From a virus (taxonomy: Duplodnaviria > Heunggongvirae > Uroviricota > Caudoviricetes): DNA of 34,970 nt. The notes under the pieces are model-generated. The model made no database searches. It saw nothing but the letters and a program-made list of their open reading frames with translations, and was not told the origin of the DNA. Below are positions 19,279-19,932 of this stretch, in pieces (the stretch's first letter is position 1; each line of letters opens with the position of its first letter). The stretch lies in the IMG/VR virus record IMGVR_UViG_2529292908_000012; one strand, 5' to 3'. The position numbers and the translations under genes were made by a program.

Positions 19279-19764
19279 TTAGTTTTGCTGTTCTATTTTA
19301 AGCTTGATAGTTTCATACAAAACAATAGTTGCGCCTGTTTTACATAATTCCCGGCTGTCATACGCACGAGACCAATAACACAACCAGTTCTCGAGATCTT
19401 CTCGAGTATAGGTTTTGCAGGCCAGTCCCTCTGCCATTTCCACGATTTCATCGCCTGGTGCTGTTAACTCATAGCCATTCAACAACAAGAAGACATAACC
19501 AGCCATCATAGCTGTTCGTTTGTTTGCATTAGCAAATGGATGATTCTGAATCAGACTTTCAATCAATACTGATGCCAGTACAAACATGTCATTAGTCTGT
19601 TCATACCATCGAACCATGCTGGGACGAGACTGAGAAGAACTTAAATTATCAACACTCAGCACACTAACAGGTTCATCTGGTGTTTGAAGCTCAATTAAAA
19701 GGCGATTAATTTCGGTAAGATCATCAAACGAAAGGTAGTGCACTCCTTCAACAATCTCAGCCAT
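19279..19764 (-). CDS. Doc/Fic-family toxin-like protein (Doc-type motif)
   Basis: HPFANANKRTAMMAGYVFLL matches the Doc-type Fic motif HxFx(D/N)(A/G)NKR; ATG at 19764 preferred over the TTG at 19773. Confidence 0.75.
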   Translation of the reverse strand: MAEIVEGVHYLSFDDLTEINRLLIELQTPDEPVSVLSVDNLSSSQSRPSMVRWYEQTNDMFVLASVLIESLIQNHPFANANKRTAMMAGYVFLLLNGYELTAPGDEIVEMAEGLACKTYTREDLENWLCYWSRAYDSRELCKTGATIVLYETIKLKIEQQN

Positions 19765-19782
19765 AGAGCACAATACCCATCA

Positions 19783-19932
19783 TTACACTTTTGAAAGTTC
19801 TTCCATTGCCTTCTCGTAACGAGAAAAACCGAAATCGAAAGCATTTTTCACCTGCTCACGATGAGTGCAATTTTCATCGATAGCCGGGCGCGGAGCTGCC
19901 ACAACGCTTTTATCGCGAGGGGGAATAGTCAA
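19783..19932 (-). CDS. Candidate small antitoxin-like ORF upstream of doc, non-canonical start
   Basis: Frame ends 10-19 nt before the doc start (..YEKAMEELSKV*); the only upstream in-frame starts are TTG/GTG with no clear SD; not in the ORF track. Confidence 0.2.
   Translation of the reverse strand: MTIPPRDKSVVAAPRPAIDENCTHREQVKNAFDFGFSRYEKAMEELSKV

What the first reader, a model, noticed from the sequence alone, without database searches (positions are those of the whole stretch)
19279..19932. Doc-like toxin without a recognisable cognate antitoxin
The Doc-type motif HPFANANKRT is intact, but the only ORF immediately upstream has no ATG (only TTG/GTG candidates), no clear SD and no similarity I can recognise to Phd-type antitoxins. 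Either the antitoxin is unusual or non-canonically initiated, or the toxin is controlled differently (for example by the neighbouring HigA-like regulator across the bidirectional terminator at 19244..19265).
Basis: partly seen in the sequence, partly recalled or inferred. Interest (0 to 1): 0.55.

Follow-up and report, generated by a model that had tools for sequence, protein, structure and literature searches.

The report
Doc toxin with frameshifted small antitoxin gene
The Doc toxin gene in this E. coli-type prophage is not an orphan: it sits behind a small, conserved, so far unnamed partner gene (the likely antitoxin), which lacks an ATG here only because this copy has lost one A from a run of seven.

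Summary
The doc gene (19279..19764, minus strand) is intact: it matches TIGR01550 at 1.3e-35 and keeps the motif HPFANANKR. The 49-codon TTG ORF upstream is the 3' five-sixths of a 59-codon gene. In relatives that gene starts with ATG behind an AAGGG Shine-Dalgarno sequence. The window has A6 where they have A7 (19942..19947), which puts the ATG at 19961 out of frame.

I collected 105 loci using the small ORF alone, from nine Enterobacterales-type genera and 80 viral contigs. In all of them a Doc homologue follows 10-23 nt downstream, across 27 different flank combinations. The small gene is under purifying selection (median dN/dS 0.10). Its product belongs to PHROG 2208 (function unknown) and has no Pfam, NCBIfam or PDB relative. 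It shows no detectable homology to Phd. AlphaFold predicts a disordered N-terminus and one confident C-terminal helix.

It is most likely a non-Phd, possibly neutralisation-only Doc antitoxin. The neighbouring HTH protein belongs to its own RelE-type toxin, which a 3.5-kb deletion has truncated here. I cannot tell whether A6 is a real mutation or a homopolymer sequencing error.

The parts
19279..19764 (-). doc: 161-aa Doc-family (Fic-fold) toxin gene with the intact motif H75-P-F-A-N-A-N-K-R83
   Evidence: TIGR01550 E 1.3e-35 and PF02661 E 2.9e-11. Alignment with P1 Doc shows all motif residues conserved. The identical protein is indexed in 2534 blocks of the public collection.
19783..19932 (-). 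3' part (codons 11-59 plus stop) of the small partner gene, the candidate antitoxin. It is read here as a 49-aa TTG ORF and holds both conserved elements, IPPRDK and the C-terminal helix EQVKNAFDFGFSRYEKAMEELSKV.
   Evidence: PHROG 2208 E 2.7e-42. AlphaFold helix at residues 34-57 with pLDDT above 90.
19929..19961 (-). 5' part of the same gene, now out of frame: ATG AGC TAC GCA CTA AAA AAC ACC CGC GAT TGA (MSYALKNTRD*). Its TGA stop overlaps the TTG of the 49-aa ORF (TTGA).
   Evidence: Read directly from the sequence and aligned to the reference.
19942..19947 (-). A6 run where relatives have A7. This is the single-base difference that breaks the 59-codon frame. In the ATG frame it reads A_AAA_AAC.
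   Evidence: All 105 other loci have an intact ORF.
19970..19974 (-). Shine-Dalgarno sequence (AAGGG) 8 nt upstream of the ATG at 19961
   Evidence: Purine-rich GAGG/AGGG lies at the same place in all 43 distinct homologues.
20025..20055 (-). Conserved upstream block TGGTATTAGGCTA, followed by the imperfect inverted repeat AGGCTA-N12-TAGCCT. It is a candidate promoter or operator of the cassette and has not been verified.
   Evidence: Related GGTATTA(A/G)/TAGACT blocks lie 55-160 nt upstream of the ATG in most otherwise unrelated upstream regions. The consensus promoter scan did not call a promoter here.
19243..19264 (-). Terminator-like hairpin after doc, shared with the convergent HTH gene
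20085..20102 (-). Terminator-like hairpin after hokD with the same core AACCCGCTTCGGCGGGTT. It marks the upstream edge of the cassette.
   Evidence: Different cassette alleles diverge immediately after this hairpin.
18911..19228 (+). HTH_3/Xre-type protein (105 aa). It is the antitoxin or regulator of the neighbouring RelE-type toxin, not of Doc.
   Evidence: Pfam HTH_3 E 1e-7 and a weak MqsA-family match. It overlaps the 3' end of the RelE gene by 8 nt here and in intact loci.
18667..18918 (+). 3' remnant of a PF06296 RelE-type toxin gene, truncated at its 5' end by the deletion junction at 18666/18667
   Evidence: PF06296 positions 42-120 of 120 matched. The intact gene encodes 112 aa in L013 and L016. 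The junction is mapped.

Best explanation
Window 19243..20084 is an ~840-bp two-gene toxin-antitoxin cassette, carried as a moron in the early-right (nin) region of a lambdoid prophage.

Gene 1 normally encodes a 59-aa protein (PHROG 2208, WP_000119356.1) and gene 2 encodes Doc.

Inferred mechanism. The small protein is largely disordered on its own. Its invariant C-terminal amphipathic helix (residues ~34-57, with F42, F46, Y49, M53 and L56 on one face) binds Doc and blocks it, as the C-terminal helix of Phd does for P1 and Salmonella Doc. Free Doc would phosphorylate EF-Tu and stop translation. This is established for P1 Doc and only inferred here from the intact HxFx(D/N)(A/G)NKR motif.

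The antitoxin has no recognisable DNA-binding domain, so it may be a neutralisation-only antitoxin. The role of its second conserved element (L-x-I-P-x-R-D-K) is unknown.

In this window one A is missing from the A7 run at codons 6-7. The ATG and Shine-Dalgarno sequence now open a 10-codon leader, and the rest of the gene is left as a 49-codon TTG ORF.

Shown: the identity of the gene, the frameshift, the strict linkage to Doc, purifying selection, and the intact Doc motif.

Inferred: binding, neutralisation, and Doc's kinase activity.

Unresolved: whether A6 is a homopolymer sequencing error or a real mutation. If it is real, antitoxin could still be made by re-initiation at the TTG that overlaps the leader stop (TTGA), or by -1 slippage on A_AAA_AAC.
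For: - **Frameshift.** The window has A6 and O104:H4 has A7. This is the only difference in 252 aligned bases.
- **Canonical start in relatives.** All 43 distinct coding sequences from 105 loci start with ATG behind a Shine-Dalgarno sequence.
- **Rarity of the short form.** The exact 59-aa protein is on at least 1000 contigs, and the 49-aa form on 4.
- **Linkage to Doc.** A Doc homologue lies 10-23 nt downstream in 105 of 105 loci retrieved by the small ORF alone. These come from Serratia, Citrobacter, Kluyvera, Hafnia, Rosenbergiella, Yersinia, Xenorhabdus, an Orbaceae genome and 80 IMG/VR contigs. There are 22 upstream and 25 downstream flank clusters in 27 combinations. Contexts include a lambdoid nin region, a myovirus baseplate module and a DinI/UmuDC region. 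A 45%-identical member is also followed by Doc.
- **Coding selection.** Median dN/dS is 0.10, and pN/pS is 0.098 over the C-terminal helix.
- **Co-divergence.** Pairwise distances of the antitoxin and Doc correlate at r = 0.93, and all 56 Doc partners keep H.F.[DN][AG]NKR.
- **Structure.** The AlphaFold model has one helix at 34-57 with pLDDT above 90 and an extended N-terminus.
- **Precedent.**
  - E. faecalis Phd has no sequence similarity to P1 Phd, yet it binds Doc through a C-terminal bent helix (PMC13034048).
  - Salmonella Phd residues 52-73 alone neutralise Doc, through hydrophobic hot spots spaced i, +4, +7, +11, +14 and ending 3 residues before the C-terminus (PMC9207808). The conserved F, F, Y, M/L, L of this family have the same spacing and the same distance from the C-terminus.
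  - Phd-C is an exchangeable linear neutralising element, and neutralisation-only antitoxins exist (PMC10440598).
- **Short natural members.** Some family members of 44-52 aa start at the position of the window's TTG.
Against: - There is no experimental or structural evidence of binding. Complex prediction was not possible with the tools.
- There is no detectable sequence homology to any known antitoxin.
- The C-terminus-anchored match to Phd is weak (P about 0.03), and another register scores higher.
- No DNA-binding domain is recognisable, so the usual autoregulation of type II systems is unexplained.
- If A6 is real and abolishes the antitoxin, an intact Doc should be harmful. Yet the Doc here is identical to the common allele. 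That fits a sequencing error or leaky expression, but it could also mean this Doc is not very toxic.
- The Doc AlphaFold model was of low confidence (pLDDT 55).
Confidence: 0.8

Rival explanations
1. The A6 run is a homopolymer sequencing or assembly error. The real locus would then have the ordinary 59-codon ATG gene, and nothing is unusual in this copy.
For: No complete RefSeq E. coli genome is identical over 19200..20100, and the best hits differ only by this base. The only other assemblies with A6 (CP017840.1, CP015891.1) carry many single-base homopolymer undercalls within 4 kb. Doc is 100% identical to the common allele, with no sign of compensating decay.
Against: Over about 17 kb comparable with O104:H4, the window has only six indels, and this is the only homopolymer contraction inside a coding sequence. 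The source therefore does not look error-prone overall. The prophage is otherwise decaying through a 3.5-kb deletion.
Confidence: 0.45
2. The A6 allele is a real mutation but is tolerated because antitoxin is still made. One route is re-initiation at the TTG that overlaps the leader's TGA (TTGA), giving the 49-aa core. Another is -1 ribosomal slippage on A_AAA_AAC, giving a full-length K7N product. A third is transcriptional slippage.
For: The stop and start overlap, and an in-frame X_XXY_YYZ heptamer can be read directly from the sequence. The 49-aa ORF keeps every family-wide conserved position, and natural members of 44-52 aa start at the same place. The intact Doc implies continued neutralisation.
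Against: There is no Shine-Dalgarno sequence before the TTG. TTG re-initiation and A6C slippage are usually inefficient (general knowledge, not tested here). No stimulatory structure was identified. None of the 105 other loci uses this arrangement.
Confidence: 0.3
3. Doc here is an orphan controlled by the neighbouring HigA-like HTH protein across the shared terminator.
For: The two genes are adjacent and convergent, and the HTH protein has weak MqsA/HigA-type similarity.
Against: The HTH gene overlaps a PF06296 RelE-type toxin gene by 8 nt and forms its own toxin-first pair. It is convergent to doc and separated from it by a terminator. The Doc pair occurs next to ParDE/VapBC, baseplate genes or DinI/UmuDC without this HTH gene, and with 25 different downstream flanks.
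Confidence: 0.03
4. The small protein is a genuine obligate partner of Doc but not an antitoxin. It could be a transcriptional regulator, a specificity or activating cofactor, or a chaperone, and this Doc clade may not be a growth-arresting toxin.
For: There is no homology to any antitoxin. The conserved IPxRDK element has no assigned role. An intact Doc coexists here with a disrupted partner gene.
Against: The gene order, size, short gap, co-divergence and a C-terminal amphipathic helix with Phd-like hot-spot spacing all fit an antitoxin. The Doc-specific kinase motif is invariant in all partners.
Confidence: 0.12

Closest known systems
Phd-Doc of bacteriophage P1 and Salmonella (type II TA; PDB 3K33, 3DD7)
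   Same: The toxin belongs to the same family (TIGR01550) and has the same catalytic motif. The partner gene lies upstream and is small. Its C-terminus is predicted to be helical and amphipathic, and its conserved hydrophobic residues have the spacing of the Phd hot spots. The system is phage-borne.
   Different: The partner lacks the Phd/YefM N-terminal DNA-binding domain and has no detectable sequence or profile similarity to Phd. It is 59 aa against 73 aa. Doc is only 25% identical to P1 Doc and carries a ~35-aa C-terminal extension.
Enterococcus faecalis Phd-Doc (PDB 9VZC; PMC13034048)
   Same: This is the closest solved Doc by sequence (E 1e-12). It is a precedent for a Doc antitoxin with no sequence similarity to P1 Phd that still binds through a C-terminal bent helix.
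   Different: EFPhd has an N-terminal beta-sheet DNA-binding domain and neutralises by dimerising the toxin. Neither feature can be inferred for the 59-aa protein.
Neutralisation-only or regulator-less antitoxins, such as PaaA2 of the PaaR2-PaaA2-ParE2 system in E. coli O157 prophage CP-933P, and the exchangeable Phd-C element of PanA antitoxins
   Same: These are short, mostly disordered antitoxins made of little more than the toxin-binding helices. They are prophage-encoded and act by linear neutralisation (PMC10440598; PMC8630535 listed; details of PaaA2 are from general knowledge).
   Different: There is no sequence relationship and the toxin family differs (ParE). PaaA2 has a dedicated third-component regulator, and no such gene travels with this cassette.
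PHROG 2208 / NCBI 'hypothetical protein' WP_000119356.1
   Same: The repaired window protein is a full-length member (E 2.7e-42) and is identical to the PGAP-annotated protein.
   Different: The family has no assigned function and no Pfam or NCBIfam model. I found no paper describing it in the searches I ran.

Membership tests
Doc (death-on-curing) subfamily of Fic proteins: the toxin | Profile match above the curated cut-off (TIGR01550 DOC_P1; Pfam PF02661 Fic) | tested here: met
   122.2 bits against a cut-off of 38.65, E 1.3e-35. PF02661 scores 44.5 bits against a cut-off of 24. PHROG 577 'Doc-like toxin' E 1e-50.
Doc (death-on-curing) subfamily of Fic proteins: the toxin | Doc-specific active-site motif HxFx(D/N)(A/G)NKR (motif as quoted in PMC13034048) | tested here: met
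   H75-P-F-A-N79-A-N81-K82-R83 aligns with P1 Doc H66..R74. The motif is present in all 56 distinct partners of the small ORF.
Doc (death-on-curing) subfamily of Fic proteins: the toxin | Fic fold | tested here: inconclusive
   The AlphaFold model is all-helical but has mean pLDDT 54.8, which is too low for a fold search. Sequence similarity to solved Doc structures 9VZC (1e-12) and 3K33 (1e-4) supports the fold indirectly.
Doc (death-on-curing) subfamily of Fic proteins: the toxin | Phosphorylates EF-Tu and arrests translation | not testable with these tools
   Needs a toxicity assay and an EF-Tu phosphorylation assay.
Phd/YefM antitoxin family: the upstream protein | Phd_YefM N-terminal domain (PF02604) or profile similarity to Phd | tested here: not met
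   No Pfam or NCBIfam hit for the protein or for any of 37 family members. hhalign against P1 Phd gives 1.4% probability and against a 12-sequence Phd alignment gives 1.2%. There is no PDB sequence hit.
Class I Fic antitoxins (FicA/VbhA type): the upstream protein | Inhibitory helix motif (S/T)xxxE(G/N) (motif from general knowledge of Fic regulation) | tested here: not met
   The motif is absent from the 59-aa sequence and from the family consensus on direct reading of alignments A2 and A3. No YhfG or other Pfam hit.
Type II toxin-antitoxin module: the pair | Two adjacent co-oriented genes, with the small partner upstream and a short intergenic gap, conserved as a unit | tested here: met
   The gap is 10-23 nt in 105 of 105 loci. 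There are 27 flank combinations. Distances co-diverge at r = 0.93.
Type II toxin-antitoxin module: the pair | The partner is a real protein-coding gene | tested here: met
   Median dN/dS is 0.10. All 43 distinct coding sequences have ATG plus a Shine-Dalgarno sequence.
Type II toxin-antitoxin module: the pair | The antitoxin binds and neutralises the toxin | not testable with these tools
The only support is indirect: a confident C-terminal helix with Phd-like hydrophobic spacing.
Type II toxin-antitoxin module: the pair | Autoregulation through a DNA-binding domain of the antitoxin | tested here: inconclusive
   No DNA-binding domain is recognisable. A conserved upstream block and inverted repeats exist, but what binds them is unknown.
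PHROG 2208: the upstream protein | Full-length profile match | tested here: met

The most novel reading that the evidence does not exclude
The 59-aa protein founds an undescribed Doc-antitoxin family restricted to prophages of Enterobacterales and a few neighbouring lineages. It is unrelated in sequence to Phd and lacks any DNA-binding domain, so it would be a minimal antitoxin made of the neutralising element alone, plus a conserved IPxRDK element of unknown role. A bolder and much less likely add-on, at about 5%, is that the A-run at codons 6-7 acts as a contingency tract that switches antitoxin supply, and hence Doc activity, on and off.
Probability: 0.6. Interest if true: 0.5.

Novelty: new variant of a known kind. 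Interest (0 to 1): 0.38.

Why it matters
Doc toxins are usually assumed to pair with Phd/YefM antitoxins. Here a whole clade of prophage Doc toxins, present in thousands of E. coli and Salmonella assemblies, pairs instead with a tiny protein that every curated library leaves unnamed.

Naming the family would correct those annotations. It would also add an independent solution for neutralising Doc, which is useful for peptide-inhibitor design of the kind pursued for Salmonella and Enterococcus Doc. It would give a compact test case for antitoxins that lack a DNA-binding domain.

For this window the practical lesson is simple. A single-base homopolymer difference can make a normal gene look as if it starts non-canonically.

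Tried and rejected
- **Complex prediction.** No interface model could be made.
- **Counting A6 and A7 genomes.** 40-41-nt megablast queries found nothing for either allele, probably because of the low-complexity filter. I used exact-protein look-ups instead.
- **Phage GenBank collection.** There was no match to the 901-bp cassette. IMG/VR supplied the viral contexts instead.
- **Homology of the small protein to Phd.**
  - hhalign against P1 Phd gave 1.4% probability, and against a Phd family profile 1.2%.
  - The ungapped, C-terminus-anchored alignment gave P about 0.03 with a better-scoring alternative register.
  - I rejected this as evidence of homology and kept it only as a similarity in helix periodicity.
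- **PDB searches with the small protein.** The sequence profile gave only chance hits at E of 0.23 or worse. Foldseek on its model gave no hit.
- **Defence-system library.** PADLOC had no model for the small protein, and only marginal PDC-S23 hits for Doc.
- **Doc structure.** The AlphaFold model had pLDDT 54.8 and I did not use it.
- **Weakest exhaustive-search hits.** P0048 and P0053 (E between 1e-4 and 1e-3) are not followed by Doc. They are probably not true members.
- **Consensus sigma-70 scan.** It found no promoter upstream of the small gene. The conserved upstream block is therefore only a candidate.
- **Literature.** Searches found no description of this partner family.

Full report
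**1. What is in the window**

The finding covers two minus-strand ORFs. The downstream one (19279..19773 from a TTG; the real ATG is at 19764) encodes a 161-aa protein. It scores 122 bits (E 1.3e-35) against NCBIfam TIGR01550 'death-on-curing family toxin' and 2.9e-11 against Pfam Fic. Aligned with the verified P1 Doc sequence, it keeps every residue of the Doc motif. H75-P-F-A-N79-A-N81-K82-R83 corresponds to P1 H66..R74 and fits HxFx(D/N)(A/G)NKR as quoted in PMC13034048. The closest solved relative is E. faecalis Doc, 9VZC (E 1e-12).

**2. Why the upstream ORF has no ATG**

The 901 bp around the locus match 126 complete E. coli genomes. The best matches (O104:H4 outbreak strains, FORC_069 and others) are 99.9% identical and differ by one indel.

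PGAP annotates a 59-aa 'hypothetical protein' (WP_000119356.1) directly upstream of doc in O104:H4. Alignment shows a single difference: the reference has A7 where the window has A6, at window 19942..19947.

With A7, the ATG at 19961 opens a 59-codon frame. That ATG lies 8 nt behind AAGGG. The product is MSYALKKHPRLTIPPRDKSVVAAPRPAIDENCTHREQVKNAFDFGFSRYEKAMEELSKV. With A6, the ATG frame stops after ten codons (MSYALKNTRD*), and the rest survives as the 49-codon TTG ORF.

**3. Is the small ORF a real gene, and is it tied to Doc?**

- *Family size.* A word-index search found 17 clusters of close relatives. An exhaustive HMM search of 1.84 billion representatives found about 37 small proteins of 44-95 aa. 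The family matches PHROG 2208 (unknown function, E 2.7e-42). It matches no Pfam family, no PADLOC model and no PDB sequence.
- *Linkage.* I retrieved loci using the small ORF alone. This gave 9 genomes (Serratia, Citrobacter, Kluyvera, Hafnia, Rosenbergiella, Yersinia pestis, two Xenorhabdus, an Orbaceae) and 80 IMG/VR contigs, plus loci from exact-protein look-ups. In all 105 usable loci a Doc homologue starts 10-23 nt after the small ORF.
- *Mobility as a unit.* The flanks fall into 22 upstream and 25 downstream clusters in 27 combinations. Contexts include a lambdoid nin region after hok, a myovirus baseplate module, and a DinI/UmuDC neighbourhood. A member only 45% identical is also followed by a Doc gene with HPFFNANKR. 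The two weakest hits are not and are probably false positives.
- *Start signals.* All 43 distinct coding sequences begin with ATG behind a GAGG/AGGG Shine-Dalgarno sequence.
- *Selection.* Median pairwise dN/dS is 0.10. The C-terminal 25 codons have pN/pS 0.098.
- *Co-divergence.* Antitoxin and Doc distances correlate at r = 0.93, and all 56 distinct Doc partners keep the kinase motif.

Together these results show a conserved, mobile two-gene cassette.

**4. What the small protein looks like**

The family has two conserved elements: L-x-I-P-x-R-D-K near the N-terminus, and the C-terminal Q-V-x-N-A-F-x3-F-x-R-Y-x-K-A-x3-L-S-K-V. The linker between them is variable and proline-rich. AlphaFold with the family alignment gives mean pLDDT 79. 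It predicts one long helix at residues 34-57 (pLDDT above 90) and no other secondary structure. Foldseek finds nothing similar in the PDB.

There is no detectable homology to Phd. hhalign gives 1.4% probability against P1 Phd and 1.2% against a Phd family profile. The Fic-antitoxin motif (S/T)xxxE(G/N) is absent.

Lack of similarity is not evidence against an antitoxin role:
- E. faecalis Phd is also unrelated in sequence to P1 Phd, yet it binds Doc through a C-terminal bent helix.
- Salmonella Phd residues 52-73 alone neutralise Doc.
- The Phd-C element is an exchangeable linear neutraliser, and neutralisation-only antitoxins are known.

The Salmonella hot spots F56, M60, H63, L67 and L70 are spaced i, +4, +7, +11, +14 and end three residues before the C-terminus. 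The near-invariant F42, F46, Y49, M53 and L56 of this family have the same spacing and the same distance to the C-terminus. As a sequence alignment this is not significant: P is about 0.03 and another register scores higher. I treat it as a similarity in how the helix would work, not as homology.

**5. The neighbours**

The HTH gene (18911..19228, plus strand) overlaps by 8 nt the 3' end of a PF06296 RelE-type ORF. In intact loci that toxin is 112 aa, with the same 8-nt overlap. The HTH protein is therefore the partner of its own toxin. It is convergent to doc and separated from it by the hairpin at 19243..19264.

In the window the RelE gene is cut at 18666/18667 by a deletion of about 3.5 kb relative to the O104:H4 prophage. 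The deletion removes the 5' end of relE, the c4/isrK-antirepressor module, ninB, ninE, rusA, ninH, Q and part of the STnc100 sRNA. No complete RefSeq E. coli genome has this junction. The prophage is therefore defective.

Upstream of the cassette lie hokD and a sok match. The hok terminator has the same hairpin core as the doc terminator. Different cassette alleles diverge immediately after it, which places the cassette at about 19243..20084.

**6. Is A6 real?**

- The exact 59-aa protein is recorded on at least 1000 contigs, and the 49-aa form on 4.
- The two 49-aa assemblies I could inspect (CP017840.1, CP015891.1) do carry A6. They also carry five or six other single-base homopolymer undercalls within 4 kb, so there the A6 is probably an error.
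- Over about 17 kb comparable with O104:H4, the window shows only six indels. This is the only homopolymer contraction in a coding sequence, so the source does not look generally error-prone.
- Doc is identical to the common allele. That argues against long-standing loss of the antitoxin.
- If the allele is real, two features read directly from the sequence could keep some antitoxin coming. The leader's TGA overlaps the TTG (TTGA), which allows termination-reinitiation. And A_AAA_AAC is an in-frame X_XXY_YYZ -1 slippery heptamer whose use would give a full-length K7N product.
- Natural family members of 44-52 aa begin at the same position as the TTG ORF, so the 49-aa core may be sufficient.

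I cannot decide between a sequencing error (about 45%), a leaky real allele (about 30%) and a true pseudogene.

**7. Verdict**

The 'orphan Doc' reading is not supported, the 'unusual antitoxin' reading is supported, and control by the HigA-like neighbour is rejected.

The locus is a Doc-type type II TA cassette. Its antitoxin belongs to an unnamed family not detectably related to Phd, which I found in no curated library apart from PHROGs (function unknown) and in none of the papers I searched. That makes it a new variant of a known kind and of moderate interest.

The non-canonical start in this window comes from a one-base homopolymer difference.

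Noticed in passing
window 18666/18667 (junction); compare L001 1980..5467: A deletion of about 3.5 kb relative to the O104:H4 prophage removes the 5' end of relE, the c4/isrK-antirepressor (ORF6N) module, ninB, ninE, rusA, ninH, the Q antiterminator and part of sRNA STnc100. The prophage should be unable to express late genes. No complete RefSeq E. coli genome has this junction.
   Followed up: partly
window 18832 (extra C relative to O104:H4 2011C-3493): The O104:H4 reference lacks one C in the RelE-type gene and is annotated with a shortened 85-aa product. The window, FORC_069 and others carry the base that keeps the 112-aa frame. The reference strain's RelE is therefore probably the frameshifted copy.
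   Followed up: partly
window 1502..9856 (-): A 2784-aa ORF with LPD38, LPD5, LPD1 and MuF_C domains looks like a phage 'polyvalent protein'. This part of the window (1..14437) does not match the O104:H4 prophage.
   Followed up: no
window 20171..20495 (-): A hokD type I toxin (PF01848, E 1.4e-23) and an Rfam sok match (110 bits) lie immediately upstream of the Doc cassette. Three toxin systems (hok/sok, the small ORF with Doc, and RelE with HTH) sit within 2 kb.
   Followed up: partly
window 19243..19264 and 20085..20102: The same hairpin core AACCCGCTTCGGCGGGTT occurs on both sides of the cassette, after doc and after hokD. It may mark moron boundaries or may be coincidence.
   Followed up: no
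window 20025..20055 (-); loci L005, L025, L054, L060, L084, L090 and others: A block GGTATTA(A/G)... / TAGACT lies 55-160 nt upstream of the small gene's ATG and recurs in otherwise unrelated upstream regions. Lineage-specific inverted repeats follow it, for example AGGCTA-N12-TAGCCT here and GGATGT-N4-ACATCC elsewhere. This is a possible cassette promoter or operator, or a 5'-UTR hairpin.
   Followed up: partly
L010 and L011 (CP017840.1, CP015891.1): These GenBank complete genomes show many single-base homopolymer undercalls, five to six per 4 kb, which disrupt DUF551, NinE and the small ORF. They are unreliable for frameshift calls.
   Followed up: yes
L112 705..1920: In a distant relative of the cassette, the Doc gene is followed directly by a second, larger Fic-domain gene (242 aa).
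   Followed up: no
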